The translations under genes and the position numbers were made by a program. From Acidobacteriota bacterium (lineage in GTDB: Bacteria; Acidobacteriota; Vicinamibacteria; Vicinamibacterales; UBA2999), in contig JBKPDL010000006.1 in NCBI GenBank assembly GCA_046727855.1, forward strand, positions 27,509 to 91,508: a stretch of 64,000 nucleotides of DNA. Reading direction: 5' to 3'. Each line of letters opens with the position of its first letter. Position 1 is the first letter of the stretch. This document shows, one piece after another, positions 6,661 to 62,650 of the stretch. Below the pieces are notes generated by a model. It saw nothing but the letters and a program-made list of their open reading frames with translations. It ran no database searches and was not told the origin of the DNA.

Positions 6661-7838
6661 AAGACGCAGTCATTGTTTCCGCTGTTCGTACCGCCGTCGG
6701 CCGCGCGCCGAAGGGCACGTTGAACGTGATGCGTCCCGACGACATGGCCTCCGCGGCCATCGCCGAGGCGATCGCACGCGCACCAGGACTCGACAACGCA
6801 GACATCGAGGACGTGATCATCGGTTGCGCGATGCCCGAAGGCGAGCAGGGCCTGAACGTCGCGCGCATTGCCAGCCTTCGCGCCGGCGTTCCAATCAGCG
6901 CATCGGCTGTAACTGTCAACCGCTTCTGCTCCTCGGGTCTGCAGGCAATCGCCTATGGCGCGGAGCGCATCATGCTCGGCCAGGGACAGGTGGCGATCGG
7001 CGGCGGCACCGAGTCGATGAGCATGGTGCCGATGGGCGGCAACAAGATGTCGCCCAATCCGACACTCGTCGAAACCTACCCGGACGTCTATCTGAGCACG
7101 GGCCTTGTCGCTGAGAACCACGCCAATCGCTCACAGATCAGCCGCGAAGAGCAGGACGCGTTTGCGTTGCGCAGCCATCAGCGCGCGATCGCAGCCATCG
7201 ACTCCGGTAGATTCAAAGACGAAATCGTTCCGCTCACCGTCAAGGTTGTCGACCCGGCGACCAATGGCGGCAGACCCAAGACATGCGAGATTACGTTCGC
7301 GGTGGACGAAGGCCCACGCCGTGACACGTCGATGGAAGCGCTTACCAAGTTGAAGCCCGCATTTCATGCCACCGGCAGTGTGACGGCCGGCAACTCCTCG
7401 CAAACGAGTGATGGGGCTGCGGCCGTCGTGCTCACATCGTCGGATTACGCGGCATCGCACGGGCTCAAGCCGCTAGCGCGCTTCGTGACGTTTGCCACCG
7501 CGGGCGTCGAGCCGGAACTGTTCGGGATCGGGCCGGTGCCGGCGATCAAAAAGGCGCTGAAGCAGGCAAGTCTCACGCTCGAGCAGATCGATCTGATCGA
7601 GCTCAACGAGGCCTTTGCCGCGCAGGTGCTCGCGTGCCTCAAGCAACTGCCGATGGATCCCGATCGGCTCAACGTCAACGGTGGCGCGATTGCGCTCGGC
7701 CATCCACTGGGATGCACCGGCGCGAAGCTCACGACGTCGCTGATCTACGAAATGCATCGCCGCGGGTCGCGCTATGGGCTGGTGACGATGTGCGTCGGTG
7801 GCGGTATGGGTGCGGCTGGTATTTTCGAAAGGCTTTAA
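6657..7838 (+). CDS. fadA: Acetyl-CoA C-acyltransferase (3-ketoacyl-CoA thiolase)
   Basis: Thiolase signatures: [11 protein letters not shown] (active-site Cys), [31 protein letters not shown]. Length is 393 aa. Confidence 0.92.
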
Positions 7839-7966
7839 CCGCTCAATTTACCTGTGTTGCGAAGGGTGGCTTCGGGGTAATTCGAGTGAATGGGCGGAAA
7901 CCCGCGGCTTTCGAGCGGCTCGCGCCATTGGCGCTATCCGCTCGAGTGAGCTCCGGACGTTAAATC
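7839..7966 (+). repeat. Intergenic repeat family 1, copy A (about 128 nt)
   Basis: Starts 1 nt after the fadA stop. Shares blocks with four other copies: CTCAATT.., GGTGGC(A/T)TCG, ATGGGCGGAAAC, GGCTCGCGCC(A/G)TTGGCGCTA, CTCGAGTGAGCTCCGG, TTAA tail. Confidence 0.8.
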
Positions 7967-15015: not shown

Positions 15016-15708
15016 TCAGTGACGCACTTTCCAGTACAGCCAGAGCGAGAGTGCCGCGTAATAGATCGGAAACAACAGCGACAGTGCAGCCCACGGTCCA
15101 TCGGTTGCAGGCAGACGCCAGACAGACCAAATCACGATCGCGCCCCACACCACGCCGAGAAGCACAGTCAGTGAGCGCAGCGTTTGGGTGCGCGAGGGAT
15201 AGACGTATCGCAGCGGCACGAATACAAGAGCCACGAACGCGATCAGAATCGCCGCGTTCCTCGCGGGCGAGAAATGCAGCACGTACAAGTAGAAGACGAC
15301 GATGTTCCAGTATGAGGGGAAGCCGGTGAAAAAGTGTTCCCGGTCATGAACCTTCGCGTCGGATCGGCTGAATCCGTATCCGCTCGCGATCAGAATCGCC
15401 ATGCCGATCCAGACACTCCATGCTTCTGGAACGAGTTGCGCCCGAATCACGATGAGCACGGGAATGAAGACGTACGTGATGTAGTCGATCAGGTTGTCGA
15501 GCAACGCACCGTCGAACCATGGCAGCCGCCCCTTGACTTTCGCGGCGCGCGCGAGCAGCCCGTCGGTCGAGTCGATGAAGATTTGGACACCCAGCCAGAA
15601 GAACGCGGCACGAAAGTCGTCGGCGAACACGGCGAGCGTGGAGAGCAGCGCGGCCGCGGCGCCGAGCGCCGTATACAAGTGCGCGATCCAAGCGAACACC
15701 ACGTTCAC
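15016..15708 (-). CDS. pcs: Phosphatidylcholine synthase (CDP-alcohol phosphatidyltransferase family)
   Basis: CDP-alcohol motif DSTDGLLARAAKV...GALLDNLIDYITYV. Pcs-like segments AHLYTALGAA and EHFFTGFPSYWNIVVFYLYV resemble rhizobial Pcs as I recall it. Confidence 0.7.
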   Translation of the reverse strand: MNVVFAWIAHLYTALGAAAALLSTLAVFADDFRAAFFWLGVQIFIDSTDGLLARAAKVKGRLPWFDGALLDNLIDYITYVFIPVLIVIRAQLVPEAWSVWIGMAILIASGYGFSRSDAKVHDREHFFTGFPSYWNIVVFYLYVLHFSPARNAAILIAFVALVFVPLRYVYPSRTQTLRSLTVLLGVVWGAIVIWSVWRLPATDGPWAALSLLFPIYYAALSLWLYWKVRH

Positions 15709-15835
15709 TCCCTCAATTCACTCGCGCCGCGAATGGTGGCATCGACGTGATGCGAGTGGATGGGCCGAAACGAGCGGCTTTTCGCACGGCTCGCGCCGTT
15801 GGCGCTACACACTGAAGCGAGCTCCGTTTTTAGAG
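15709..15835 (+). repeat. Intergenic repeat family 1, copy B (about 127 nt)
   Basis: Fills the gap between the pcs start codon (15706-15708) and the ThyX-like gene. The stop codon of the ThyX-like gene (15830-15832) lies in the repeat tail TTTTTAGAG. Confidence 0.8.
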
Positions 15836-17377
15836 CCGGCGCTGAGCGTTGGGGAAACTGTTCCAGACGGGCACACCACAGAAGTGGGTGCCTTCGGTGC
15901 ATCGCGGCGACACCAGCTTGTTCCGCAACACGCAGGGTGGACCAAGGTGGCGCGCGAGGCGCGCGTGAATCGCGCCAACCTGCTCGATTTCGTCCATCGA
16001 CGCCAGGTAGATCTCTTCCTGCGCGTTGAAACAGGTACGTAACGTCCACTTGTGTTGCAGGGCGATCATCGTCCCGGACTCGACCAATCGCAGCGCCTTG
16101 GCGTTGGGCAACACATACAACGCGAATTCGAGCGGGACACCGAGCGAGAGGAGCTTATTCTTGGCCGTCCAGGCGTCCTGCATCGAGCGCTCGTAGACCG
16201 CAAACGCCGCGGGATTCCGCTGGATCAACGTCGGCGTGACGAAATCGGGCGCCGTCGTGTCCGCGAACGTGAGCAGCGGCCGCGAGGCCGGCACCATGCG
16301 ATGACGCTGATCCTGCGAATCGGCGGTGTGACTCAGCCGCTTTTCAAACACGTACGAGGCGTGATGCAACGCCCGCATCATCGGCGAGTGATACGACACG
16401 TTGAGCATGTCGACGCGGTACTTGTTGCGTGCCGGATTCATCACGCGATCGATCGCGTCGTCATCTGACAGCTCGTCGGCCGTGAGGCCAAACGTCGAAC
16501 GCACGGCGTCGGCGACAACCGTTTCCGCATTGGGCGACCAGTCGCGCAGCTTTGAGACACGCCCTTCCAGCCGGCGATCGAAATCGCGAACAAACGCGTC
16601 GCCTTCGGCGCGCGGGCGGGGAAAATTCTTCTCCGGCAGCTCATCGGCCTGCAGCGTCTCGAGGCCAACCTTCTCGAAAAACAGCGGATCGACCCGGTTG
16701 ACCAGATCGACCATACGGCCGATGACCAGCCGCGCTTCGTACGGCGTGTCGCCGGAGCTCAGCATGCGATGAAGGCGATGCAGAACGAGGCCGGAGATCG
16801 TGTGCACCATTGAGGTGAACGCGCCAATCGGCACCACATAACGTGCGGTTTCGATGGCCTTTTTCTCCGCCTCGCGCTCGACCGCTTTCAGACGCTCTGG
16901 CGTGTTGGTGGCGCGTACGTAGCGCAGCTCTTTGAGGATCGCCCACGCGTCGTCTTTGAGAATCGACGACAGCCGCTCGTATGCGTCCCACGCCCGTAGC
17001 ACTTCCTGTTCGTAAACGTCCAGCGCGTCGCCGTCAATCGGCGGCACAAACGCACGCGGTTCCCGCAGCTTGACGTATCGCTGGCTCGACTGCTCCGAGT
17101 TGTAGAACGGATAGCCGTGCAGCACGCTCCACACGAACTGCCTGGAGATGTTCTCCATGCCAAACTCGAAGTGGGCGTGCTGGAAGACGGTGTGATGGCC
17201 GCCGTCAAACGTCAGCGGGCCAATCGAATTGCGCTGCTTTTCGGTAATTTCGGCGGGTGCGATCACGCGAGGCGAGTAGCAGGTGCGCGCCGCCGCAATC
17301 GCTCCGTCATACGGAACCCCCGGAGCATTGCGCAGCGTGATGTTCGGCTCTCCGGTGGCTAGAGCGAGCGTCGGCAT
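15830..17377 (-). CDS. Tandem-domain flavin-dependent thymidylate synthase (ThyX)-like protein, 515 aa
   Basis: There are two ThyX-like halves. Half 1 reads GGHHTVFQHAHFEF...RQFVWSVLHGYPFYNSEQSSQRY (the S-x-R-Y part is kept, the RHR part is lost). Half 2 reads HHASYVFEKRLSHTADSQDQRHRMVPASRP and later NAQEEI (RHR is kept). Confidence 0.7.
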   Translation of the reverse strand: MPTLALATGEPNITLRNAPGVPYDGAIAAARTCYSPRVIAPAEITEKQRNSIGPLTFDGGHHTVFQHAHFEFGMENISRQFVWSVLHGYPFYNSEQSSQRYVKLREPRAFVPPIDGDALDVYEQEVLRAWDAYERLSSILKDDAWAILKELRYVRATNTPERLKAVEREAEKKAIETARYVVPIGAFTSMVHTISGLVLHRLHRMLSSGDTPYEARLVIGRMVDLVNRVDPLFFEKVGLETLQADELPEKNFPRPRAEGDAFVRDFDRRLEGRVSKLRDWSPNAETVVADAVRSTFGLTADELSDDDAIDRVMNPARNKYRVDMLNVSYHSPMMRALHHASYVFEKRLSHTADSQDQRHRMVPASRPLLTFADTTAPDFVTPTLIQRNPAAFAVYERSMQDAWTAKNKLLSLGVPLEFALYVLPNAKALRLVESGTMIALQHKWTLRTCFNAQEEIYLASMDEIEQVGAIHARLARHLGPPCVLRNKLVSPRCTEGTHFCGVPVWNSFPNAQRRL

Positions 17378-17393: not shown

Positions 17394-17460
17394 GCGAACC
17401 TGCCACGTGCCTGCCCTGAGCGAGTCGAAGGGCCTGCCCTGAGCGAGCGACGCGAACCTG
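17394..17460. repeat. Two tandem 23-nt units (CCTGCCCTGAGCGAG..) bracketed by a 10-nt direct repeat GCGAACCTGC
   Basis: Read directly: GCGAACCTGC-CACGTG-CCTGCCCTGAGCGAGTCGAAGGG-CCTGCCCTGAGCGAGCGAC-GCGAACCTGC. The same core recurs inside lpdA (36966-37037). Confidence 0.75.
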
Positions 17461-27640: not shown

Positions 27641-27646
27641 GATCTA

Positions 27647-27776
27647 ACCCCTCAATTCACTTTGAGTGGCAAATCGTGGCATCGAAGTGATTCGACCGTA
27701 TGGGACAGAACCCGGGCGGCTTTCGGGCGGCTCGCGCCGTTGGCGCCATCCACTTCGAGTGGTCTCCGGGGTTAAG
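27647..27776 (+). repeat. Intergenic repeat family 1, copy C (about 130 nt)
   Basis: Occupies nearly the whole divergent intergenic region between the ygfZ-like start (27640) and the hydrolase start (27788). Confidence 0.8.
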
Positions 27777-32385: not shown

Positions 32386-32528
32386 CGTTTCACTCCGCGG
32401 ACGTGCCGCAGCCGCTCGCAGCGACGCCGCGATCGAGCTTGGCGTTGCCCATCCGACTGTATCGTCGGACACCGGTGCCTTCGCGCGGTTCGCGCCGTTG
32501 GCGCTATCCATTCGAGTGAGCTCGGGGG
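32386..32528 (+). repeat. Intergenic repeat family 1, copy D (about 143 nt, diverged 5' half)
   Basis: The 3' half GCCTTCGCGCGGTTCGCGCCGTTGGCGCTATCCATTCGAGTGAGCTCGGGGG is conserved. The 5' half is recognisable (CGACTGTATCGTCGGACACC vs CGACCGTATGGGCGGAAACC). It supplies the last codons and the stop of the convergent SDR gene. Confidence 0.7.
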
Positions 32529-34921: not shown

Positions 34922-36283
34922 TCAGACCTGCGACGGATCGAAGTTCTCGATGCCGTTCTTGACCTCGGCCATGAATCGATCGGCCACGGCGCCGTCGATC
35001 AAACGATGGTCGTAACCGAGGGTGAGATATCCCATCAGACGTATGCCAATCATGTCGTCAATCACCACCGGCCGCTTTTCGATCGTGCCGACGCCGAGAA
35101 TCGCAACCTGCGGTTGATTGATGATCGGCAATCCGAATTGCGCGCCAAAGTTGCCTGGATTGGTAACTGTGAACGTGCCGCCCTGTACTTCGTCCGGGCT
35201 CAATTTCTTCGCCCGCGCGCGATCGGCGACATCGGAAATGGCGCGGGTCAGGCCGAGCAGATTCAACTCATCGGCTCGTTTCACGACCGGCACAATCAAG
35301 CCGTGGTCGAGCGCCACCGCGACGCCGAGATTGATGTCGCGCTTGTACACGATGTTGTCGACGTCGATCGACGCGTTGATCACGGGATGGCGCCGCAGCA
35401 CGTCGATCGCGACCTTGGCAATGAATGACGTGTAGGTGAGCTTCACGCCCCGCTGCTCGTAATCGGCTTTCCGTGCTTTACGAATCTCGTCCACCTTGGT
35501 GTAGTTGACTTCGAAGACCGAGTACACGTGCGCCGAGGTCCGCCGGCTGACGACCATGTGCTCGGCGATTTTCTTGCGCATGATCGACATTGGCTCGACA
35601 CGATCGCCTGCTGCACGCACCTCAGGAGAGCCTGCGTCGCCGTAGCCCGGTTGCGGAGCGGGCGGAGCGGAGGCGGGCGATCTGCTGAGATAGCCGAGGA
35701 TGTCGTTTTTCGTAACGCGTCCCGCAATGCCTGTCCCGCTGATCTGGCCGATATCGACGCCGTGTTCCTTCGCAATGCGGCGCACGAGCGGCGACGACTT
35801 TTGACGATCAGGCCCGCCTTCGCGGCCCTCAGGCAGCTTCGGCGCGGTCTCGCCGTAGCTCGCGTCAGTTACACCGCGAGCGGAGGCGGATGCGACAGGT
35901 GCGGGAGGCACGACGGACGCAACAGAAGCGCTTGCCGGCGACGGCACTCCATCGGCTTGCGGCGTCTGCGGTTGTGCCTTTCCGGATGGCGGTGGGGCGG
36001 TCGCAGTCGTTGCGGTCTTTGCGGGCGGGGTTGCAGCCGCTTCTCCGGCCGTCCCGATGGTCGCGACGACGCTGTTCACGGCAACCGTTTCCCCCTCTTT
36101 GACTTTGATCTCCAGCAGTGTCCCGGCTGTCGGCGATGGGATCTCGGCATCGACCTTGTCGGTCGAAATCTCGAACAGCGGCTCGTCGCGATCGACCGCG
36201 TCGCCGATCTTCTTGATCCAGCGGACAATCGTGCCTTCGGCAATCGACTCGCCCATCTGGGGCATAACCACTGGTGTTGCCAT
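34922..36283 (-). CDS. 2-oxoacid dehydrogenase E2 dihydrolipoamide acyltransferase
   Basis: Lipoyl domain (MPQMGESIAEGTIVRW...ISTDKVDAEI). Ala/Pro linker. E3-binding domain (SPLVRRIAKEHGVDIGQISGTGIAGRVTKNDI). Catalytic DHRLIDGA. Confidence 0.9.
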   Translation of the reverse strand: MATPVVMPQMGESIAEGTIVRWIKKIGDAVDRDEPLFEISTDKVDAEIPSPTAGTLLEIKVKEGETVAVNSVVATIGTAGEAAATPPAKTATTATAPPPSGKAQPQTPQADGVPSPASASVASVVPPAPVASASARGVTDASYGETAPKLPEGREGGPDRQKSSPLVRRIAKEHGVDIGQISGTGIAGRVTKNDILGYLSRSPASAPPAPQPGYGDAGSPEVRAAGDRVEPMSIMRKKIAEHMVVSRRTSAHVYSVFEVNYTKVDEIRKARKADYEQRGVKLTYTSFIAKVAIDVLRRHPVINASIDVDNIVYKRDINLGVAVALDHGLIVPVVKRADELNLLGLTRAISDVADRARAKKLSPDEVQGGTFTVTNPGNFGAQFGLPIINQPQVAILGVGTIEKRPVVIDDMIGIRLMGYLTLGYDHRLIDGAVADRFMAEVKNGIENFDPSQV

Positions 36284-36323: not shown

Positions 36324-37808
36324 TTAAATATGAATTGCGGCACCGTGCACCGCGTGCGCGGCCTCTCCTACAGCCTCCGACATCGTTGGATGCGCGTGCA
36401 TGGTTTTAATCAGCTCCTCGACTGTGCACTCCAGGCGCAGCGCCAGCACTGCTTCGGCGACGAGTTCCGTGGCACGAGGGCCGATGATGTGCACGCCCAA
36501 CACCTCGTCGTATTTCTTATCGGCCACGATCTTCACGAATCCGTCGGTCTCGCCCGCCATTCGTGCGCGGCCGAGCGCTTTGAACGGGAACGATCCGACG
36601 CGTACGTCGTAGCCCTGCTGTTTCGCCTGCGCTTCGGTCAGTCCAACGCTGCCGATCTCGGGATCGCAGTACGTACACCGCGGAACGTGGTCGTAGTTAA
36701 TCGGCCGTACTTCCTGGCCAGCGATCCGTTCCGCCAGAACCACCCCTTCCATCGAGGATACATGCGCCAGCTGGTAATGGGGGCCCCCCATCGTGATGAC
36801 ATCGCCAATCGCCGATATCCCGGGCACGCTGGTGCGAAACAGTTCATCCACCACCACGTAGCCGCGATCCATCTTGACGCCGAGTGCTTCGAGACCAAGC
36901 CCTTCGGTCACGGGTCCGCGTCCTGTCGCGACGAGCAGCACGTCGGCCAGGAGTTTGCCCGGCTTGCTCTGCCCTGAGCTTGCCGAAGGGCTCTCTCCTG
37001 AGCTTGCCGAAGGGCTCTGCCCTGAACTGCCCGCGGGCACTGTCATTTCGATTTCTGTACCTTTGCCGCCCGGTTTCGCGGAAGTGACCTCCGTGTTCGT
37101 AAACGATTTGATCCCTCGGCGTTTGAAGCTCTTTTCGAGCTCTGACGAAACCGCTTCGTCTTCGCCCGGTACGAGCCGCGGCAGCAACTCGAGGATGGTC
37201 ACTTCGCTGCCAAAGCTCCTGAAGATCGACGCGAACTCCACGCCGACCGCGCCGCTGCCCATGATCGCGATCGACTTCGGCACGTCTTTCAGGTGGATCG
37301 CTTCGTCGCTGAAGATGATCTGCTTACGATCGACGTCGATGCCTGGCACGCTGCGCGCTGCGGATCCTGTCGCGACGATGATCTCTTTTTTCGCGATGAC
37401 CGTCTGCTTGCCGCCATCGTGCAGCCTGACCTCAACATTCCTGCCGCCGGTCAGGCGCGCGGTGCCCTTGATCCACTCGATCTTGTTCTTCTTCATCAGC
37501 AGCTCGACACCACCGGTGAGCCCGCTGACGATCTTGTCTTTGCGCGCGTGGACGGCGGTCATGTCGAGTTTCACCGCGCTGCCGTCGATGCTCAGTCCCC
37601 AGTCTTTTGCCGCCTGCGCCACCTTCAACGCGTGCGCATGTTCGAGCAGCGCCTTCGTCGGAATGCAGCCCCAGATCAAACAGGTACCGCCGAGCGCCTG
37701 TTGTTTTTCGATTAAGCCGACTTTGAAGCCGAGCTGCGCGGCGCGAATCGCCGCCACGTAGCCGCCTGTGCCAGCGCCAATCACAATGACGTCGTACTCG
37801 TTGGCCAT
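36324..37808 (-). CDS. lpdA: Dihydrolipoyl dehydrogenase (E3) carrying an in-frame Ser/Gly/Pro-rich repeat insertion
   Basis: GAGTGGY FAD motif, redox disulfide GGTCLIWGCIPTK and C-terminal HAHPTMSE. Insertion is GSSGQSPSASSGESPSASSGQS. Confidence 0.92.
   Translation of the reverse strand: MANEYDVIVIGAGTGGYVAAIRAAQLGFKVGLIEKQQALGGTCLIWGCIPTKALLEHAHALKVAQAAKDWGLSIDGSAVKLDMTAVHARKDKIVSGLTGGVELLMKKNKIEWIKGTARLTGGRNVEVRLHDGGKQTVIAKKEIIVATGSAARSVPGIDVDRKQIIFSDEAIHLKDVPKSIAIMGSGAVGVEFASIFRSFGSEVTILELLPRLVPGEDEAVSSELEKSFKRRGIKSFTNTEVTSAKPGGKGTEIEMTVPAGSSGQSPSASSGESPSASSGQSKPGKLLADVLLVATGRGPVTEGLGLEALGVKMDRGYVVVDELFRTSVPGISAIGDVITMGGPHYQLAHVSSMEGVVLAERIAGQEVRPINYDHVPRCTYCDPEIGSVGLTEAQAKQQGYDVRVGSFPFKALGRARMAGETDGFVKIVADKKYDEVLGVHIIGPRATELVAEAVLALRLECTVEELIKTMHAHPTMSEAVGEAAHAVHGAAIHI
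36966..37037. repeat. Three tandem 24-nt units inside lpdA (GCTCTGCCCTGAGCTTGCCGAAGG / GCTCTCTCCTGAGCTTGCCGAAGG / degenerate third)
   Basis: Read directly. The minus-strand reading CCTTCGGCAAGCTCAGGGCAGAGC encodes PSASSGQS. The core matches the intergenic repeat at 17411-17458 (CCTTCG-N4-GCTCAGGGCAG). Confidence 0.8.
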
Positions 37809-46841: not shown

Positions 46842-46872
46842 CTGCTCGCGTCTGCAGAGAGGAGGCGAGCAG
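46842..46872 (+). other. Hairpin CTGCTCGC-N15-GCGAGCAG just after the M14 peptidase stop
   Basis: An 8-bp perfect stem read directly. No U-tract follows, so a terminator function is unproven. Confidence 0.35.
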
Positions 46873-46890
46873 AAAGTGCGAGCGTCATTT

Positions 46891-47017
46891 ACCCCTTCAA
46901 CTCGACTCAGTTGCGAATCGTGGCATCGCGGCGATCCGACCGTACGGGCGGAAACGGACGTCTTTCGCATGACTCGCGGCGTTGGCGCTACCCACTCACG
47001 TGAGCTGCGCGTTTAAG
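46891..47017 (+). repeat. Intergenic repeat family 1, copy E (about 127 nt)
   Basis: Shares AATCGTGGCATCG, CGACCGTA(C/T)GGGCGGAAAC, CTCGCG(G/C)CGTTGGCGCTA and the TTTAAG tail with the other copies. Its 3' part overlaps the annotated 5' end of the SNF2 helicase ORF. Confidence 0.8.
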
Positions 47018-49309
47018 TCCGGCGACCAGGTGGAAGTGCGCGGCGAAGTGTGGGTCGTTGTCCAGAGCGAAGTCTTTGCCGACTGCACGCTCGTCACGCT
47101 GCGCGGCAGCGGCGAAGACAACCACGGGCAGACCACACGCATTCTCACGCCATTCGATCGGCCGCGCATGCTGCACGTGACGGATCTTCCTCGGCGCGTC
47201 AACCGGCAGCGCGTGCTGCAGACCGCCGCGCGGGCTGTTGCTCGCACTTATCGCTGGGTCGACCCGTGGACGGCGGCGCGCGCACGAATCGACCTTCTGC
47301 CCTGGCAGCTCGAACCGGCCACTGCGGTGATCGGCGGCGCCACCCGAGTGCTGCTGGCGGATGAGGTCGGGCTCGGTAAAACGATCCAGGCTGGCCTGAT
47401 CCTTTCCGAGCTGCGTGCACGCGGGCTCGTCACGCGGGCGCTCGTTCTCACGCCGGCATCGCTACGTGAGCAGTGGGCGGCGGAACTGCGCGACCGCTTC
47501 GCGCTCGATGCGCAGGTGCTCGACCATGCCGCGCTGACGACGGTGCTGGCCACGCTTCCTGTCGGCGTGAATCCGTGGGAAACGACCGAGATTGCGATCT
47601 CGTCGATCGATCTGGTCAAACGCGGCGACATGCGCGGCGCAGTCGACGCCGTTCCTTTCGATCTGTTGATTGTCGACGAGGCACATCATCTCAATCCAGG
47701 CACCGAGCGCGGCGCGCTCGTCATGTCGTTGGCGGCTCGTATTCCGTGGGTCGTGCTCGCAACCGCCACTCCGCCCGCCGGTGACGACCGTGCCTTTGCA
47801 TTTCTGCAGAACATCGGCGCGCACCAGAACGGGCCCGATCTGCTCGTGTTTCGACGGTCGGCACAACAGACGGGGCGCCGCCGCACGCGCCGTTCGCGGT
47901 TTCGGGCGGTCGCGCCGAGTCCGCTGGAGCGCCAACTGTTGGACGAGACATATGTGTATGCACAGGAGATCTGGCGCCACGCCGGCGACGGTCCCTACGG
48001 CGCCATGGTCGCGAGCGTCACGTGCAAGCGTGCCGTGTCTTGTCCCTCCGCGCTTGCGCGCACCCTCGAACGCCGCCATCAGCTGCTTCGCGGCGGCAAT
48101 GTGAGCGAGGCCTCGCAGCCTGTGCTGCCATGGCTCGAGGACGAGAGGGCCGACGATTGCGAGCCGGATGCGGTGCTCGGCAGTCCGGGACTGGCCGATC
48201 GATCGCGCGAGCTCGCATGGATCGAGCGCATCGTGAGCCTGGCAAAGGCGCTCGCGGGTCGATCAACGAAGTTCGACGCGATCGGACGGCTGCTTGCGCG
48301 AACCAACGAACCGGCAATTGTGTTCAGCGAATATCGGGATTCGATGACGGCACTGGCGACGCGCCTAGGGCAGTGCGTTGCGGTTGCGCTCCTGCACGGC
48401 GGCATGTCGCCGCGTGAGCGCCGCGAATCGATCGAGCGCTTTGTGCGCGGCCAGGCGCGCGTCCTGCTTGCGACCGACGCCGCTGGCGAAGGGTTGAATC
48501 TGCAGGAACGCTGCCGGCTGGTGATCAATCTCGAGCTGCCCTGGAGCCCGACGCGGCTCGAGCAGCGCGTCGGACGCGTTGACCGTCTTGGACAGCGTCG
48601 CCGCGTGCACGCACGACATCTGTTCTATCGAGACACGTTCGAGGACCACGTCCACAGCCGGCTGCAGGCGCGGCTTGACGCGATGCCGGCGTTCGCTGAG
48701 GACTTCAGCGACAAAGCAATCCAGGAGGTCGTCGACCGTGTATCTCTGGCTCGCACCGCGTTGCACCTCACCATCTCAGGGCGATACCGCTGCCGGCACG
48801 AGCGGCGGCCGGTTTGCGCGCTGTTTCCGCGGCGACGCGATCGAACGTCGGCGATCCTGCTGCTGTTCGGCGCGGACGTTCACGACCGCAGCGGGCGATG
48901 GGTCGCCCGTGAGCTTGTCCCAGTTCGCGTTGTCTGCGACCGTGGTGCGTTCCGCAGCGACGATCGTCATGCCATCTCGCGATTGGCTCAATCGGACGTG
49001 GTGCAGAGCGCGATTGCCGCAACGCTGAAGCGGCATCTGAGCGTCGCGCACACCGACGCAGGTCGCACGTCGTCCGCGCTCAGCGCACGGCTCGCCGGCA
49101 TTCTGGAAACTCTGACGCCGCAGCGTCCGGCGCTGTTTCAGGGCTCTCTTTTCGACCGCCAGGCCGAGCGCGCCGCAGGTGCCAGCAATGCCGCTGCACA
49201 GAAACTGCGCCACCACCTCGAAGCGCGGCGCGACGCGTTCATCGCGCTGGCCTACGTGAAGGCGTCGGCTCCGCGACTCATCGCGGCATGGCCGCTGGTC
49301 GCGGAGTAG
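46982..49309 (+). CDS. SNF2-family (SF2) helicase/translocase, 775 aa
   Basis: Motif I LLADEVGLGKTIQAG, II LLIVDEAHHLN, III LATATP, V LLATDAAGEGLNLQ, VI LEQRVGRVDRLGQ. It also has an N-terminal beta-rich module and a roughly 220-aa C-terminal extension without recognisable motifs. The start is uncertain: TTG 46982 or GTG 47000, both inside repeat copy E. Confidence 0.85.
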   Translation: MALPTHVSCAFKSGDQVEVRGEVWVVVQSEVFADCTLVTLRGSGEDNHGQTTRILTPFDRPRMLHVTDLPRRVNRQRVLQTAARAVARTYRWVDPWTAARARIDLLPWQLEPATAVIGGATRVLLADEVGLGKTIQAGLILSELRARGLVTRALVLTPASLREQWAAELRDRFALDAQVLDHAALTTVLATLPVGVNPWETTEIAISSIDLVKRGDMRGAVDAVPFDLLIVDEAHHLNPGTERGALVMSLAARIPWVVLATATPPAGDDRAFAFLQNIGAHQNGPDLLVFRRSAQQTGRRRTRRSRFRAVAPSPLERQLLDETYVYAQEIWRHAGDGPYGAMVASVTCKRAVSCPSALARTLERRHQLLRGGNVSEASQPVLPWLEDERADDCEPDAVLGSPGLADRSRELAWIERIVSLAKALAGRSTKFDAIGRLLARTNEPAIVFSEYRDSMTALATRLGQCVAVALLHGGMSPRERRESIERFVRGQARVLLATDAAGEGLNLQERCRLVINLELPWSPTRLEQRVGRVDRLGQRRRVHARHLFYRDTFEDHVHSRLQARLDAMPAFAEDFSDKAIQEVVDRVSLARTALHLTISGRYRCRHERRPVCALFPRRRDRTSAILLLFGADVHDRSGRWVARELVPVRVVCDRGAFRSDDRHAISRLAQSDVVQSAIAATLKRHLSVAHTDAGRTSSALSARLAGILETLTPQRPALFQGSLFDRQAERAAGASNAAAQKLRHHLEARRDAFIALAYVKASAPRLIAAWPLVAE

Positions 49310-49310
49310 A

Positions 49311-52300
49311 GTGGTGCGCTCGGCGATCTCCGGAGCTCTCATTCCCCCAGGCTTTCTCGCCGATCATCTTGCCGCCCAATTCCAATCGGAGCTAACGGCG
49401 GCGAAGCAGTCGATGCCGATTGCCGCCTTCGCACGATGGTGGCGCCGCGCGGCGCGGCAACTCGGTCCCGCGTCGAGCGTACGGCGCGTTCTCGACATCG
49501 GCGTGCTGCCGTTGCTCGATCTGCTTGGCCATGAGGTTCTCCACCTCGAGCCATCTTCAGAAGGATTCACCGCTGTCCTCGGCTACAAGCGGAGACCTAT
49601 CGCTGTTCTCCTCGTGCTGCCATGGGACCGCGCTTCGGATCACACCTTTCGGACGGCAGCGCGGATCGCGCGGACGGCCGGAACGCGCTGGTCGGTGGCG
49701 GCCACAGGAGCTCGCCTGCAGATCATCGACTCGTCGCGCCCGTGGTCGCGGCGCGCGCTGGAGTTCGATCTCGAGCGCGTCATCGCCGACGAACGCGCGC
49801 TGCATCTCCTCTGGACGCTCGCACGGGCGGGGGCCTTCGCGGACTTTCTCGAGTCCGTGATCGAACGCGCGGATGCCCACACGGTGGACGTCTGCACCTC
49901 GCTCAGCGACGGCGTCATGACGTCATTGAGCACGCTCGTGACTGCCATGACACGGAGTGGCACAACACGCAGGCACGATCCCGAGGTCACGTTCGAACAG
50001 GCGCTCACGTTGGTCTATCGCCTGTTGTTTCTGCTCTTTGCGGAAGCGCGTGCGCTCGTGCCCACATGGCACCGCGTTTATCGCGACGCTTACACCATCG
50101 AGGCGCTCTGCACGCGCAGCACGCGGCACAGTCGGCCGGCCGGCTTGTGGCAGGCGTTGCAGGCAATCTCTCGCCTTGCACATGCAGGATGCCAAGCCAG
50201 GGATCTCTGCGTCACGCCGTTCAACGGACGGCTTTTTTCTCCAGCTCACACCCCGCTCGGCGAGCGCGCGCGCATCCCTGACGCAGTGGTTCGCGAAGTG
50301 GTGCTCTCGCTCGCGACTGCGCCCACGGGCGTCGGACGCCGGCGTATTGCGTACGCGGATCTCGGTGTGGAGCAGCTCGGCGCCGTGTACGAAAGAGTAC
50401 TTGAATACGAGCTGCGGCCGCACAACGGGCCACTCATCCTCACCCGCACGTCCACGGAACGAAAAGCGACGGGCAGCTTCTACACGCCACGCTCGATCAC
50501 CGAATTTCTCGTGCGCCGCACGCTTCATCCGCTCGTCGCCGGACGGACGAGCGACGAGATTCTTTCGCTTCGAGTTGTCGATCCAGCCATGGGCAGCGGC
50601 GCGTTCATTGTGGCTGCCTGCCGCTTTCTAGCGAACGCCGCGGAACACGCGCGGATCGAATCAGGAGAGTGGCGCGCCGACGAGGTCACCGTGGAGCAGC
50701 GTGCCGAACTGCGACGCACCATCGCGCAGCGCTGTTTGTACGGCGTCGATCGGAACCCTACAGCGGTGCAACTGGCGCGCTTGTCGCTGTGGCTGACGAC
50801 GCTCACGACCGATCGCCCGCTGACGTTTCTCGATCATCACCTGGTCAGCGGTGATAGTCTCGTCGGCGCTCGTCTCGAGGACCTCGCGCGACAACCGTCT
50901 GCGGGAGGCAGCGCACGCTCACCTGCAGGTCAGGCGCTTCCGTTATTCGAAGGCGCCGCCTCGTCTGAGATGGCCGCACACGTCCTGCCGGATCGTTTTC
51001 GCATCGCGGAAGAACCCGGCGACACGCTTGCGGCGGTGCGGGCGAAAGAGCGCGCTTTGCAGAGCCTCAACGCACCGGGCGCGCCGCTGCAGCGATGGAA
51101 GGCCGCCGCCGACCTCTGGTGTGCGGGGTGGTTCTGGCCGGAACGCGCGCTCACACCAGCCATGTACGGCGAATTGCTCGCGGCCATTCTGCAGTGCCCT
51201 TTGACGCTGCCGGACCGGCAGGTGCAGAAACTGCTCCATCAGGCCGGCACGCTGGCGCGGCAGCTACGCACGTTCCACTGGCAACTCGAGTTTCCTGAAG
51301 TGTTCTTCGATCGTGTGGGACGGCTGCGGCCTGACGGTGGGTTCGACGCAGTGCTCGGCAATCCTCCGTGGGATGTGCTCCGCGCCGACACCGGCAGCGA
51401 ATCCGTTAGAGCCGAGGCTCGCCGTCAACAGAAGGACGGCCTCAGATTCCTCAGGAGCTCCGGCGTGTATGCCCGTCAGGGCGGCGGACATCCGAATCGC
51501 TATCAGTTGTTCGCCGAACGTGGGTTGCAGCTGCTGCGGCACGGCGGGCGGTTTGGTGTGATTCTGCCATCCGGCATCGCAAGCGATCGCGGGAGCGCGC
51601 CGCTTCGGCGCCTGCTGCTCGACTCGACCGCGATTGATCGCTTGTTTGGCTTCAGCAATCGCGATGGCATCTTCCCCATTCATCGCGACATGCGATTTGT
51701 GCTCGTCACCGGCACGCGAGGAGGTGTTACCACTCGTCTCGCGTGTCGGTTCGGCATACGTGACGCAACCTGGCTCGATAGCCTTCCCGACGCGGCGTCA
51801 GAAGATCCGGCGGACGCGAGACCGATCGTGCTTTCGCGTACGTTGCTCGATGCCTGGGACCCCTCTCATCTGGCAATCCCGGAACTTGATAGCCCGACGG
51901 ATCTCGAAATCCTTGCGCATGTGACGGCGACAGTGCCCGGACTCGGCAGCGAACGCGGCTGGCGGGTGCAATTTGGCCGCGAGCTGAACGCGACCGACGA
52001 CAAAGCTCACTTTGAGCCCTGTCGCGAGGCAAATCGAGAGAGCCTGCCCGTGATCGAAGGCAAGCACCTGACGCCGTTCAGGGTCGATGCCGCCCGAGCG
52101 GCATGGGCTATTCCGCCACGAACGGCCTCGCGATTGCTGAACGTCTCTGCAACGTTCGGGCGAGCGAGAATTGCGTATCGCGATGTCGCGAGCGCGACCA
52201 ACCGCCTTACGTTGATTGCCGCCATCCTGCCAGCGAAAACCGTCTCAACACACACTGTGTTCTGCCTCAAGACCCCGCTCGGCGCCGCAAGTCAGTACTG

Positions 52301-52643
52301 TCTTGTCGCTCTTCTCAACAGCCTGGCCGCGAACTATCTCGTGCGGCTACAGGTCACGACACATGTGACCGCGTCGCTGATGTCGCGTCTGCCGGTACCG
52401 AAACCGGATGGCCGCTCGCCTGATTTCCGCGAGCTGGCGCAGCTCGCGCGCGAGTTGGAGAAGAGCGGCATCGAAGCACGTCCCGACGCCTATGCGCGCC
52501 TCAACGCAATTGCGGCACGCCTCTACGGGTTGCGCACCGACCAGTACGAACACGTGCTGACGACCTTTCCGTTGATTCCGCTCGAAATTCGGCAGCGATG
52601 TCTCGCCGCCTACCGTGAAGCCACGGAAGCACGGAAACACTGA
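49311..52643 (+). CDS. Large gamma-class N6-adenine DNA methyltransferase of type IIG / PglX / Eco57I-like architecture, 1110 aa
   Basis: GSFYTPRSITEFLV. SAM motif I VVDPAMGSGAFIV. CLYGVDRNPTAVQLARLSLWL. FHWQLEFPEVF. Catalytic motif IV VLGNPPWDVL (NPPW at 51360-51371). Roughly 400-aa C-terminal TRD-like region. GTG lies 1 nt after the helicase TAG, with GGAG 5 nt upstream. Confidence 0.85.
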   Translation: MVRSAISGALIPPGFLADHLAAQFQSELTAAKQSMPIAAFARWWRRAARQLGPASSVRRVLDIGVLPLLDLLGHEVLHLEPSSEGFTAVLGYKRRPIAVLLVLPWDRASDHTFRTAARIARTAGTRWSVAATGARLQIIDSSRPWSRRALEFDLERVIADERALHLLWTLARAGAFADFLESVIERADAHTVDVCTSLSDGVMTSLSTLVTAMTRSGTTRRHDPEVTFEQALTLVYRLLFLLFAEARALVPTWHRVYRDAYTIEALCTRSTRHSRPAGLWQALQAISRLAHAGCQARDLCVTPFNGRLFSPAHTPLGERARIPDAVVREVVLSLATAPTGVGRRRIAYADLGVEQLGAVYERVLEYELRPHNGPLILTRTSTERKATGSFYTPRSITEFLVRRTLHPLVAGRTSDEILSLRVVDPAMGSGAFIVAACRFLANAAEHARIESGEWRADEVTVEQRAELRRTIAQRCLYGVDRNPTAVQLARLSLWLTTLTTDRPLTFLDHHLVSGDSLVGARLEDLARQPSAGGSARSPAGQALPLFEGAASSEMAAHVLPDRFRIAEEPGDTLAAVRAKERALQSLNAPGAPLQRWKAAADLWCAGWFWPERALTPAMYGELLAAILQCPLTLPDRQVQKLLHQAGTLARQLRTFHWQLEFPEVFFDRVGRLRPDGGFDAVLGNPPWDVLRADTGSESVRAEARRQQKDGLRFLRSSGVYARQGGGHPNRYQLFAERGLQLLRHGGRFGVILPSGIASDRGSAPLRRLLLDSTAIDRLFGFSNRDGIFPIHRDMRFVLVTGTRGGVTTRLACRFGIRDATWLDSLPDAASEDPADARPIVLSRTLLDAWDPSHLAIPELDSPTDLEILAHVTATVPGLGSERGWRVQFGRELNATDDKAHFEPCREANRESLPVIEGKHLTPFRVDAARAAWAIPPRTASRLLNVSATFGRARIAYRDVASATNRLTLIAAILPAKTVSTHTVFCLKTPLGAASQYCLVALLNSLAANYLVRLQVTTHVTASLMSRLPVPKPDGRSPDFRELAQLARELEKSGIEARPDAYARLNAIAARLYGLRTDQYEHVLTTFPLIPLEIRQRCLAAYREATEARKH

Positions 52644-61414: not shown

Positions 61415-62650
61415 ATGGCGACGAACATCGTAGTGCCGGAGTTGGGCGAATCGGTTGTCGAAGCGCGCGTGGCGAAGTGGTTGAAGAACGAAGGCGACGC
61501 GGTGGCGAACGGCGAACCGCTGGTCGAGCTCGAAACGGAAAAGATCGATCTGGAAGTCAGCGCCGATCGCGAAGGCGTGCTGGCAACCATCAAGCACAAG
61601 GAGGGTGACGATGTAAGGGTCGGCGAAGTGCTCGCGGTATTAGAAGCGGCGCAAGGCGCGGCCGCCGTGTCCGCCTCCGCCCGCCCGGCAAATGAGGCGA
61701 GCCATGGCGAGACCTTGCCGAAGCGGCCTGAAGGCCGCGAAGGCGGGCCCGTGGCTGACGTGCGCGCCACCCCGACCGCCCGTAACGTGGCCAAGGAACA
61801 GGGTGTCAGTCTGGAAACGATCGCGCCGAGCGGGCCGGCTGGTCGTGTCATGAAGCAGGATGTTTTGAAGGCGCGCGGCACCGAGCCTGCTCCGGCTGCT
61901 CGACCGCTCCAACCACCCGTACCCGACCGCCCGGTCCCATCCGTCAGACCCGCCCGGAGCGAGGAACGCGTCCGCATGAGCAAACGGCGGCAGACCATCG
62001 CCCGCCGTCTCGTCGAGGCGCAGCACAACGCCGCGATGCTCACGACGTTCAACGAGGCGGACATGGCCGCGGTCATGTCACTTCGTGAGCGACGCAAGGA
62101 CGAGTTCCAAAAGCAGCACGGCGTCGGGCTGGGCATCGCGTCGTTCTTCGTTAAAGCGGCGATGGGTGCGCTGAAAGCATTTCCCCAGCTCAACGCCGAA
62201 ATCCAGGCCGACGAGATTGTGCTGAAGCACTACTACGACATCGGGGTAGCCGTTGGCGCCGAAGGCGGACTGGTCGTGCCCGTCATTCGCGATGCCGACG
62301 CCTTGAGCTTCGCCGAAATCGAGCGCGCGATTCGCGACTTTGCGAAACGTGCCACCGAAGGAACCCTGACGCTGGAGGATCTCAAAGGCGGCACCTTCAC
62401 GATCACCAACGGCGGCGTGTTCGGGTCGCTGATGAGCACGCCGATTTTGAATCCGCCGCAAGTCGGTATTCTGGGCTTACACAAGATCGCCGATCGGCCG
62501 GTGGCGGTGAACGGACAGATGGTGATCCGGCCGATGATGTACCTCGCGCTCAGCTACGATCACCGCGTCGTGGATGGCCGCGAGGCGGTGCAGTTTCTCG
62601 TCAAGATCAAGGAGTACGTCGAGGATCCGGCGTGGTTGCTGATTTCGTGA
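61415..62650 (+). CDS. sucB: Dihydrolipoyllysine-residue succinyltransferase (E2o)
   Basis: Lipoyl domain ([12 protein letters not shown]), E3-binding domain ([14 protein letters not shown]) and catalytic SYDHRVVDG. It starts 2 nt after sucA. Confidence 0.92.

What the first reader, a model, noticed from the sequence alone, without database searches (positions are those of the whole stretch)
27647..27776. Roughly 130-nt intergenic repeat family, five copies in 40 kb, all in the same orientation and fitted to gene boundaries
Seen in sequence:
- The copies lie at 7839-7966, 15709-15835, 27647-27776, 32386-32528 (diverged 5' half) and 46891-47017.
- Conserved blocks, in order, are: CCCTCAATTCACT, (A)ATCGTGGCATCG, CGACCGTATGGGCGGAAAC, GGCTTTCG, GGCTCGCGCCGTTGGCGCTA (containing the hairpin GCGCC-GTT-GGCGC), CCACTCGAGTGAGCTCCGG, and a TTAAG-like tail.
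- All five read in the same direction on the plus strand although the flanking genes are on both strands.
- Each copy nearly fills its intergenic gap:
  - Copy A starts 1 nt after the fadA stop.
  - Copy B spans from the pcs start codon to the stop codon of the ThyX-like gene, which lies inside the repeat tail.
  - Copy C occupies a divergent promoter region.
  - Copy D donates the last codons and the stop of the SDR gene.
  - Copy E contains the annotated start of the SNF2 helicase.

Inference:
- This is a MITE/REP-like element or a structured noncoding RNA family.
- No transposase, RAYT-like gene or obvious target-site duplication was seen, and I cannot match it to a named family from memory.
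Basis: seen in the sequence. Interest (0 to 1): 0.55.

Follow-up and report, generated by a model that had tools for sequence, protein, structure and literature searches.

The report
Small mobile repeat inserted at TAA
The five ~130-base repeats are real copies of a small gene-less mobile element (MITE-like) in a soil acidobacterium; it inserts at the triplet TAA, often a gene's stop codon, which is why it sits so snugly between genes, and this is an ordinary kind of element with no sign of being a functional RNA.

Summary
The window has exactly five copies of a ~125-130-nt repeat, all on the + strand, at the stated places. A profile built only from copies in another genome finds these five and nothing else (E 1e-13 to 1e-27).

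The window comes from a Vicinamibacterales (Acidobacteriota) genome. The family was found only in this species and in two closely related MAGs (JBKPAJ and JBKPHN). It is absent from Rfam, plasmids, phages, E. coli genomes, the viral contigs and the JGI metagenome contig collection that was scanned.

Comparison with syntenic relatives shows filled and empty sites:
- Copies B and C are shared with the MAGs.
- Copies A and E are missing from the MAGs.
- The C site is empty in a more distant relative.
- The two clean junctions (A and C) each show a 3-bp TAA duplication. At A the duplicated triplet is the thiolase stop codon.

Orthologous copies evolve as fast as other spacer DNA (85.0% vs 87.4% identity). 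The predicted helices show no covariation beyond shuffles, and terminal inverted repeats are weak. No transposase is nearby.

Best reading: an old, partly decayed, non-autonomous transposable element with TAA target preference. It is a new member of a known kind. The same-strand orientation is not significant (p = 0.06), and two copies in a relative lie in opposite orientation.

The parts
7836..7963 (+). Copy A. Left TAA at 7836-7838 (the thiolase stop codon), element body 7839-7960, right TAA at 7961-7963. It lies between the thiolase and acyl-CoA dehydrogenase genes.
   Evidence: - nhmmer E 1.5e-37; sequence.
- The site is empty in both sister MAGs: spacer of 72 nt against 198 nt. Empty site reads CTC-TGA-ATCAAC; filled site reads CTT-TAA-[126 nt]-ATCAAC.
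- Present and identical in the same-species contig L057.
15704..15833 (+). Copy B, between the pcs-like and ThyX-like genes (both on the - strand). Its right tail TTTAG holds the complement of the ThyX-like stop codon (15830-15832). Its left end reads GAGGGAG on the - strand, 5 nt before the likely GTG start of the pcs-like gene (15702).
   Evidence: -.
- An orthologous copy is present in the sister MAGs (L068/L069 3094-2966, 86% identical).
- A more distant relative (L056) has an unrelated spacer at this place.
- The pcs-like naming rests on NCBIfam matches below the curated cut-off.
27645..27775 (+). Copy C (the finding's coordinates). Left TAA at 27645-27647, body 27648-27772, right TAA at 27773-27775. 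It fills the divergent spacer between the GCV_T-like gene (-) and the S15/S9 peptidase gene (+). The core hairpin GCGCC-GTT-GGCGC is at 27734-27746.
   Evidence: -.
- The ortholog is present in MAG JBKPHN (L055 5103-4977).
- The site is empty in the more distant relative L056: CATGGTC-TAA-GCTGAA against CATGRTC-TAA-[element]-TAA-GCTGRAA.
32388..32527 (+). Copy D. Its 5' half is diverged and carries about 16 extra nt, and it has no right-hand TAA. It starts 4 nt after the PALP (threonine dehydratase-like) stop codon. The last 7 codons and the TAG stop (32504-32506) of the convergent SDR gene are read from its right part on the - strand.
   Evidence: -.
- Present with one SNP in the same-species contig L071.
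- Its state in the sister MAGs could not be fetched.
46888..47016 (+). Copy E, between the M14 peptidase gene and the SNF2 (DrmD-like) helicase gene.
- It is absent from three relatives.
- It sits after codon 5 of the helicase ORF as that ORF is called in the relatives.
- An ORF from the ancestral GTG start (by alignment, about 46872-46874) would now run through the element and end at its right TAA (47014-47016). This is my own reading of the sequence.
   Evidence: -.
- Empty sites in L053/L052 (93% aa identity), L067 (78%) and L054 (72%).
- Translations.
- The junction is not clean: relatives read ATTTGCGTCC where the window has ATTTA[...]TTTAAGTCC.

Best explanation
**What it is.** The repeat is a small non-autonomous transposable element (MITE-like, about 122-126 nt). 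It belongs to a Vicinamibacterales lineage of Acidobacteriota.

**Shown.**
- It was inserted at different times. Copies B and C were inserted before the split between the window's species and its sister MAGs, and copy E after it. Copy A is also absent from the sister MAGs, but no outgroup was available for it.
- The two clean junctions carry a duplicated TAA.
- In 4 of 8 independent loci, the triplet at the TAA position of one end (TAA, or a variant such as TGA) is also the stop codon of the neighbouring gene.

**Inferred.**
- A transposase encoded elsewhere in the genome mobilised it in trans. The enzyme would be a DDE type that makes TA or TNA duplications, such as some IS5-family subgroups or IS630.
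- In a 63% G+C genome, TAA-containing A/T-rich sites are rare and sit mostly at gene ends. TTAA occurs 19 times in 64 kb. Insertions therefore land, or survive, at gene boundaries, which explains the snug fit.
- After insertion the copies drift like other spacer DNA. They have side effects on neighbouring genes:
  - keeping or donating stop codons (A, B, D);
  - replacing a C-terminal tail (D);
  - splitting the 5' end of the helicase gene (E);
  - placing a Shine-Dalgarno-like GAGGGG (the complement of the left end CCCCTC) 5-7 nt upstream of the start codons of the leftward genes at B and C.
For: **Family is real and confined to one lineage.**
- establish the five copies.
- In the genome-collection scan the only true hits are in MAG JBKPAJ. 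The metagenome and viral scans gave only chance hits.
- Taxon assignment rests on protein homologs.

**Filled and empty sites.**
- E is absent in relatives at 93%, 78% and 72% aa identity.
- A is absent in both sister MAGs, with a size difference of exactly 126 nt.
- C is present in the sister MAG and absent in the outgroup.
- B is present in the sister MAGs.

**Duplication and target.**
- TAA duplication at the A and C junctions.
- Stop-codon coincidences at A-left, B-right, L008a-left and L008b-right.
- TTAA occurs only 19 times in the window, and four of these are element ends.

**No sign of another function.**
- No coding potential and no 3-base periodicity.
- The consensus ends form a weak inverted repeat: 15 of 23 positions match, and 13 of 1000 shuffles score as well.
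- Drift is near neutral: orthologous copies 85.0% identical, other spacers 87.4%, genes 91.4%, four-fold sites 78%. No slow region stands out between orthologs (p = 0.84).

**Definition used.** MITE features follow Delihas 2011 (PMC3184786) and the 2024 review PMC10969869.
Against: - No autonomous partner with matching ends was found. None lies in the window or in the syntenic loci. No solo ends occur in the 722 kb held.
- Terminal inverted repeats are short and weak. Only 2 of 8 individual copies score above shuffles.
- The E junction does not show a clean TAA duplication.
- Paralogs differ by 20-39%. If A and E were inserted after the species split, their source copies must already have been diverged and lie elsewhere in the genome.
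- The most conserved segment among paralogs is the internal GC hairpin (columns 91-104, mean 0.96), not the ends. This is not what transposase binding at the ends would predict.
- TAA duplication cannot be told apart from insertion 3' of a TYTAA motif by an element that itself ends in TAA.
Confidence: 0.75

Rival explanations
1. The element is a miniature derivative of a single-strand (HUH/Y1) transposon of the IS200/IS605 type (a PATE-like element). It would insert 3' of a TYTAA motif without duplication. It would carry its own TTTAA cleavage site at the right end and have a preferred strand.
For: - The left flank is always T-Y-T-A-A-like, and in the empty sites it is pre-existing flank (TCTAA in L056, TCTGA in L068).
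- The right end is (G/T)TTAA in most copies.
- Inverted repeats are weak.
- Palindromes of the form CAC-N4-GTG lie near both ends in some copies.
- All five window copies are on one strand.
- Helix 1 is rich in G-T/G-U pairs, which only work on the + strand.
Against: - The ends are symmetric (CCCC...GGGG), and the consensus inverted repeat is above chance.
- The left hairpin is missing in several copies.
- Two copies in L008 are in opposite orientation 1.1 kb apart.
- No tnpA or tnpB lies in any held locus.
- The strand bias is not significant (p = 0.06).
- GC skew in the window is too flat to assign a replichore.
Confidence: 0.1
2. The repeat is a host-selected cis-acting module, acting as RNA or as a protein-binding site. 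For example, it could be an intercistronic hairpin that stabilises or processes mRNA, with mobility only historical.
For: - The internal hairpin TCGCGCCGTTGGCGC is the best conserved segment among paralogs. It is unchanged between the B orthologs.
- Copies B and C have been kept since before the species split.
- Copy A folds better than shuffles on both strands (z = -3.1 and -2.8).
- Comparable effects on mRNA are described for ERIC and Correia elements (PMC10969869).
Against: - No covariation.
- The hairpin is broken without compensation in E and in the L055 ortholog of C.
- Orthologous copies are no more conserved than other spacers, and no region is significantly slow.
- No terminator-like T run follows the hairpin, and no promoter-like site was found around copy C.
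- No Rfam family matches.
- Copies sit in every transcriptional context and in either sense relative to neighbouring genes.
Confidence: 0.08
3. The repeats are integron attC-like recombination sites, either scattered single sites or ORF-less cassettes.
For: - Copy C and its ortholog start with RYYYAAC (ATCTAAC, GTCTAAC) and end with GTTRRRY (GTTAAGC).
- The size of about 130 nt, the imperfect palindromic ends, the common orientation in the window and the position just after genes all resemble the species-specific attC repeats of chromosomal integrons. This comparison rests on my own knowledge of attC sites.
Against: - Only 2-3 of 8 copies satisfy both boxes. The consensus right end is GGGTTTAA.
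- Copies are 4.7-14.5 kb apart and separated by syntenic housekeeping genes on both strands, so there are no cassettes.
- The inserted unit at A and C is the repeat alone.
- No integrase lies in the window or the syntenic loci.
Confidence: 0.02

Closest known systems
Bacterial MITEs of the ERIC / Correia / RUP type (ERIC ~127 bp; PMC3184786, PMC10969869)
   Same: - Size of about 125-130 nt, with no ORF.
- Dispersed intergenic copies, often just after genes.
- Short A/T target duplication containing TA.
- Filled and empty sites differ between relatives.
- Copies overlap gene ends and can alter 5' or 3' ends of genes.
- Able to form hairpins.
   Different: - No sequence similarity: no match in 5,426 E. 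coli genomes, which per the literature carry ERIC and REP, and no Rfam match.
- Inverted repeats are much weaker than the 20-26-bp repeats typical of those families.
- The host is a Vicinamibacterales acidobacterium.
- Few copies were seen in the sister MAG.
- The internal GC hairpin is better conserved than the ends.
IS5-family subgroups (IS1031/IS427-like, TNA or YTAR duplications), IS630 (TA), and the eukaryotic Tourist MITEs of the related PIF/Harbinger superfamily (TAA/TTA duplication). These target sites are from my own knowledge of ISfinder and the transposon literature, not tested here.
   Same: A 3-bp TAA duplication (or a 2-bp TA) at the two clean junctions. All observed flanks fit YTAR (CTAA, TTAA, TTAG).
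   Different: - No transposase or full-length insertion sequence with these ends has been seen.
- The element ends begin CCCC/CCC, not the GG/GA that I recall as typical of IS5-family ends.
- Assignment to any transposase family is an inference only.
IS200/IS605-derived miniature elements (PATEs)
   Same: A fixed penta-nucleotide-like left flank (TYTAA), a right end resembling that motif, weak inverted repeats, and one strand used in the window.
   Different: The ends are symmetric, there is no consistent left hairpin, two copies in a relative are in opposite orientation, and no tnpA or tnpB lies nearby.
REP / REPIN elements with RAYT transposases (PMC3733652)
   Same: Intergenic, GC-rich hairpin, found next to gene ends.
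   Different: REPs are 20-40-nt palindromes with GTAG or CGTC heads, usually in hundreds of copies. This unit is about 125 nt, lacks those heads, and has flanking TAA duplications.

Membership tests
MITE (features as listed in PMC3184786) | Small (under about 400 bp), with no transposase or other conserved ORF | tested here: met
   - Size is 125-133 nt, or 143 nt for copy D.
- Four of the six reading frames of the consensus are broken by internal stops, and conservation has no 3-base periodicity.
MITE (features as listed in PMC3184786) | Several dispersed copies in one genome | tested here: met
   - Five copies in 64 kb.
- Five copies found in the sister MAGs: three at their own sites (L008a, L008b, L010) and the orthologs of B and C.
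- The genome-wide number is unknown.
MITE (features as listed in PMC3184786) | Target-site duplication flanking the element | tested here: met
   - TAA on both sides at A and C, with a single TAA or TGA in the empty sites.
- Flanks are imperfect or decayed at B, E, L010 and L008b.
- This cannot be formally separated from insertion 3' of TYTAA by an element that ends in TAA.
MITE (features as listed in PMC3184786) | Terminal inverted repeats | tested here: inconclusive
   - Consensus ends match at 15 of 23 positions, and 13 of 1000 shuffles score as well.
- Only copies C and L008a are individually above shuffles.
MITE (features as listed in PMC3184786) | Filled versus empty sites at orthologous positions in related genomes | tested here: met
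   - A is empty in JBKPAJ and JBKPHN.
- E is empty in three relatives.
- C is empty in L056 but filled in JBKPHN.
MITE (features as listed in PMC3184786) | A full-length insertion sequence with the same ends that supplies the transposase | not testable with these tools
- No transposase lies in the window or the syntenic loci.
- No solo ends occur in the 722 kb held.
MITE (features as listed in PMC3184786) | Folds into a stable long stem-loop as RNA | tested here: inconclusive
   - Folding z-scores on the + strand are -3.1, -1.4, -2.1, -0.8 and 0.0.
- The consensus structure has an energy of only -12 kcal/mol.
Structured non-coding RNA family | Match to a curated RNA family | tested here: not met
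   - Rfam 15 gave nothing at gathering thresholds.
- Nothing relevant at E <= 10 around copy C or at E <= 1 over the whole window.
Structured non-coding RNA family | Compensatory changes that support a conserved structure | tested here: not met
   - 18 pairs over 9 sequences gave a covariation score of 0.153 against 0.155 in shuffles.
- One pair has changes on both sides, and 240 of 500 shuffles do as well.
- The sample is small.
Structured non-coding RNA family | Purifying selection relative to neutral DNA | tested here: not met
   - Orthologous copies are 85.0% identical, other spacers 87.4% and four-fold sites 78%.
- No slow window stands out (p = 0.84).
REP / REPIN-RAYT | A 20-40-nt palindromic unit with a GTAG or CGTC head, and a RAYT gene in the genome | tested here: not met
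   - The unit is about 125 nt and lacks those heads (definition from PMC3733652).
- No Y1 transposase lies in the window.
- The rest of the genome was not available.
IS200/IS605-derived miniature element | No duplication, insertion 3' of a fixed 4-5-nt motif, sub-terminal hairpins on one strand, and strand bias tied to replication | tested here: inconclusive
   - The motif-like left flank TYTAA is present.
- Hairpins are inconsistent.
- Orientation is 5 of 5 in the window, but mixed in L008.
- The replichore cannot be assigned.
Integron attC site | R'' (RYYYAAC) and R' (GTTRRRY) boxes, cassette arrays with sites no more than a few kb apart, and an integrase or a cluster of sites | tested here: not met
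   - Both boxes are met in only 2-3 of 8 copies.
- Spacing is 4.7-14.5 kb, with syntenic core genes between the copies.
- No integrase was found.

The most novel reading that the evidence does not exclude
The element could be more than a decaying MITE. It might be a strand-specific, stop-codon-homing mobile module, moved by a single-strand (HUH-type) or otherwise unusual mechanism. Its parts would have been co-opted by the host. The left end would supply a Shine-Dalgarno sequence (GAGGGG) to leftward genes. The terminal TAA would supply stop codons. The conserved internal GC hairpin would act at the RNA level as an intercistronic stabiliser or insulator. On this reading, the common orientation in the window would reflect the direction of replication.
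Probability: 0.1. Interest if true: 0.6.

Novelty: new member of a known kind. Interest (0 to 1): 0.3.

Why it matters
- **New family in a poorly studied group.** It adds a repeat family to Vicinamibacterales (Acidobacteriota), where I found no description of this element. Two literature searches turned up nothing.
- **Simple cause for an odd-looking pattern.** Repeats fitted exactly to gene boundaries follow from a TAA target in a high-G+C genome, where TAA is largely confined to stop codons and spacers.
- **Use in annotation.** These copies create misleading longest-ORF starts (the pcs-like and SNF2 genes) and altered gene ends (the SDR tail).
- **Use as markers.** Copies A and E are present in this species but absent from its sister lineage.
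- **Limits.** It does not open a new mechanism unless the strand bias or the conserved hairpin turns out to be functional.

Tried and rejected
**Searches that found nothing**
- Rfam at gathering and at permissive thresholds gave no family.
- BLAST of copy C against plasmids, and of the consensus against E. coli genomes and phages, gave no match. There is therefore no detectable sequence similarity to any repeat in E. coli genomes.
- The metagenome scan with the core pattern gave 34 loci, all chance matches to the hairpin only.
- Two viral scans also gave only chance matches.
- A literal search of papers for the core sequence gave no hits.

**Readings rejected**
- Duplicated gene fragment or peptide-coding repeat: four of the six reading frames of the consensus are broken by internal stops, and there is no codon periodicity.
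- tRNA-derived element: no tRNA is present in the window.
- Promoter or terminator module: no sigma-70-like site was found around copy C, and no T run follows the hairpin.
- Orientation tied to the replichore: GC skew across the window is flat, at most about 0.03 in magnitude, so it cannot be tested.
- attC reading: see the rival explanations.

**Tests that came out negative or failed**
- Post-insertion constraint on the hairpin: a sliding-window test on the two ortholog pairs was not significant.
- The source genome could not be extended on the right. The exact-protein look-up for the right-hand end gene failed, as did an earlier look-up with the thiolase gene next to copy A. A same-species contig added 6.7 kb on the left and holds no further copy.
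- Copy D's state in the sister MAGs could not be fetched.

Full report

Yes.
- An alignment of the five stated regions shows a shared unit of about 130 nt.
- nhmmer with a profile of that alignment finds exactly five hits in 64 kb, all on the + strand: 7834-7962, 15704-15833, 27643-27775, 32409-32527 and 46888-47016 (E 1e-26 to 1e-37).
- That profile was built from the hits themselves, so I repeated the search with a profile made only from three copies found in another genome. It recovers the same five (E 9e-27 to 4e-13), and the next hit has E = 0.095.
- A seed-based repeat search independently makes this the largest direct-repeat family in the window.
- Copy D is full length but has a diverged 5' half with about 16 extra nt.
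- Copies A and D are also present in independent metagenome assemblies of the same species (L057 and L071, 99.4-99.5% identical). They are not assembly artefacts.

**2. Where does the window come from, and where else is the family found?**

- Homologs of three window proteins place the window in Vicinamibacterales, Acidobacteriota.
- The nearest genomes are two MAGs, GCA_046726375.1 (JBKPAJ, labelled Acidobacteriota GB_HAYS_MAG_00008) and GCA_046729875.1 (JBKPHN). They share 87-93% amino-acid identity in the genes compared.
- A pattern scan of 185,579 species genomes gave 17 loci. Only two of these, both from JBKPAJ, hold full-length copies: L008 with two copies in opposite orientation 1.1 kb apart, and L010 with one.
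- The scans of metagenome contigs and viral contigs gave only chance matches to the GC hairpin.
- There is no match in Rfam, plasmids, E. coli genomes or phages.
- The family is therefore real but confined to a narrow lineage.
- A further 6.7 kb of the same species to the left of the window holds no copy.

**3. Filled and empty sites**

Syntenic loci from relatives give the key evidence.

| Copy | Sister MAGs (JBKPAJ/JBKPHN) | More distant relatives |
|---|---|---|
| A | absent | not covered |
| B | present, 86% identical | L056 has an unrelated spacer |
| C | present (JBKPHN) | L056 empty (45-nt spacer) |
| D | could not be fetched | not covered |
| E | absent (45-nt spacer vs 151 nt) | absent in L067 (78% aa) and L054 (72% aa) |

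- **Copy E.** By parsimony it was inserted in the window's lineage after the split from the sister MAGs.
- **Copy A.** The thiolase-ACAD spacer is 72 nt in the MAGs against 198 nt in the window, a difference of exactly 126 nt. The junction is clean: the empty site reads ...GAACGACTC-TGA-ATCAAC and the filled site reads ...GAAAGGCTT-TAA-[CCGCTC...GGACGT-TAA]-ATCAAC.
- **Copy C.** Its junction is also clean. The empty site in L056 reads CATGGTC-TAA-GCTGAA. The filled site reads CATGRTC-TAA-[CCCC...GGGT-TAA]-GCTGRAA.

Two independent clean junctions thus show insertion of the repeat alone, together with a duplicated TAA. At A the duplicated triplet is the thiolase stop codon. The E junction is not clean: relatives read ATTTGCGTCC at the site.

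**4. Anatomy**

- The 130-nt consensus, including the flanking penta-nucleotides, is TTTAA-CCCCTCAATTCACCTGAGTTGCGAATCGTGGCATCGAGGTGATCCGACTGTATGGGCGGAAACGGGCGGGTTTTCGCGCGGCTCGCGCCGTTGGCGCTATCCACTCGAGTGAGCTCCGGG-TTTAA.
- The left flank is always T-Y-T-A-A-like and the right end is (G/T)TTAA or TTTAG.
- The ends form only a weak inverted repeat. In the consensus 15 of 23 positions match, and 13 of 1000 shuffles score as well. Only two of eight single copies exceed shuffles.
- There is no coding potential.
- Paralogs are 61-80% identical. Window copies are no closer to one another than to the MAG copies, so the family is old.
- The window and the syntenic loci of relatives hold housekeeping genes only, with no transposase or integrase.

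**5. Why the fit to gene boundaries?**

- TTAA occurs 19 times in the window against 72 expected from base composition. TAA occurs 135 times against 399 expected. Four of the 19 TTAA sites are element ends.
- In 4 of 8 independent loci the triplet at the TAA position of one end is also the stop codon of the neighbouring gene: A-left, B-right, L008a-left and L008b-right, the last as TGA.
- A target preference for TAA, plus selection against insertions inside genes, is enough to explain the snug fit.
- The other boundary effects are side effects of insertion.
  - The last 7 codons and the stop of the SDR gene are read from copy D.
  - Copy E sits after codon 5 of the SNF2 ORF as it is called in relatives. 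That upstream start has a GGAGGAGG Shine-Dalgarno sequence. The ancestral start would now give an ORF that ends at the element's right TAA (my reading of the sequence), and the helicase must start internally.
  - The longest-ORF starts inside B and E are probably artefacts of ORF listing. The start matching the relative's gene call at B is 2 nt outside the element.
- One inferred point concerns the - strand. There the left end reads GAGGGG, which is Shine-Dalgarno-like. It lies 7 nt before the ATG of the GCV_T-like gene at C, and as GAGGGAG 5 nt before the GTG of the pcs-like gene at B. This was read and has not been tested.

**6. Is it a structured RNA or a selected element?**

The evidence does not support this.
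- RNAalifold gives a weak consensus structure of -12 kcal/mol, consisting of two short hairpins and one longer-range helix.
- Pair counts on that structure match the shuffled controls: covariation score 0.153 against 0.155, with one pair changed on both sides.
- The GC hairpin is broken without compensation in E and in the L055 ortholog of C.
- Folding z-scores range from -3.1 to 0.0.
- Between the two species, element positions are 85.0% identical. Other spacer positions are 87.4%, genes 91.4% and four-fold degenerate sites 78%.
- No window of the element is significantly slow between orthologs (p = 0.84).
- One point remains unexplained. Among paralogs, the internal hairpin segment is the best conserved part (mean 0.96 over columns 91-104), more so than the ends.

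**7. Orientation**

- Five of five copies on one strand has a two-sided probability of 0.06.
- The two L008 copies are in opposite orientation.
- GC skew in the window is too flat to define a replichore.
- I therefore do not treat the orientation as a property of the family. A genome-wide census should check it, because it is the main feature that would favour a single-strand transposition mechanism.

**8. Verdict**

- The repeat is a non-autonomous mobile element of the MITE kind with a TAA (or TA) target duplication.
- It was active both before and after the split between the window's species and its sister MAGs, and is now drifting.
- By the features listed in PMC3184786, it meets four: small size, multiple copies, target-site duplication, and filled/empty polymorphism.
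- It is inconclusive for terminal inverted repeats and for a stable stem-loop.
- The cognate transposase could not be sought.
- The closest analogues in size and behaviour are ERIC- and Correia-type MITEs, without sequence similarity.
- The TAA duplication points to IS5-family or IS630-type enzymes, or, as a minority reading, to an IS200/IS605-type element that inserts after TYTAA.
- It is a new member of a known kind, of modest interest.

Noticed in passing
window 46982-52643: An SNF2 helicase and a 1110-aa N6-adenine methyltransferase form an adjacent gene pair.
- The helicase's best NCBIfam match is DISARM DrmD, below the curated cut-off.
- The methyltransferase has Eco57I/MmeI-like Pfam domains and weak BREX PglX and MADS matches.
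- The pair is conserved in all relatives examined and looks defence-like.
- Copy E is inserted at its 5' end in this species only.
   Followed up: partly
window 36966-37037: Three tandem 24-nt units (GCTCTGCCCTGAGCTTGCCGAAGG-like, 79-100% identical) lie inside the dihydrolipoamide dehydrogenase gene (36324-37808, - strand). They imply an 8-residue repeat in the protein. A fourth, weaker match lies at 17408-17431 (family D4).
   Followed up: no
window 15830-17377: The ThyX-like gene encodes 515 aa, about twice the usual ThyX length, and has two matched Thy1 stretches. It scores just below the TIGR02170 cut-off. The same length is seen in relatives: 515 aa in L068/L069 and 519 aa in L056.
   Followed up: no
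L008 6139-6265 (-) and 7337-7466 (+): In MAG JBKPAJ, two copies in inverted orientation bracket a two-gene segment: a 171-aa ORF and a Bcp-type peroxiredoxin-like ORF (named from its sequence, not checked against a family library). Each copy abuts a stop codon. The layout resembles a composite transposon. I did not examine whether the segment is mobile.
   Followed up: no
window 35811-35903 and 61657-61749: A 93-nt inverted match, 80% complementary, links the two 2-oxoacid dehydrogenase E2 genes (34922-36283 on the - strand and 61415-62650 on the + strand). This is paralog similarity and not part of the repeat family.
   Followed up: no
window as a whole; L057, L070, L071: - The window's species appears at 99.4-99.7% nucleotide identity in three JGI metagenomes (3300086367, 3300062131, 3300060916).
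- Two of its exact proteins are on record from an NCBI contig of 91,508 nt.
- The genome-collection pattern scan nevertheless did not return this genome. It is probably not the species representative in that collection, or it is masked there.
   Followed up: partly
It matches the NCBIfam phosphatidylcholine synthase models only below their cut-offs (191 bits against 440). It is best described as a pcs-like CDP-alcohol phosphatidyltransferase.
   Followed up: partly
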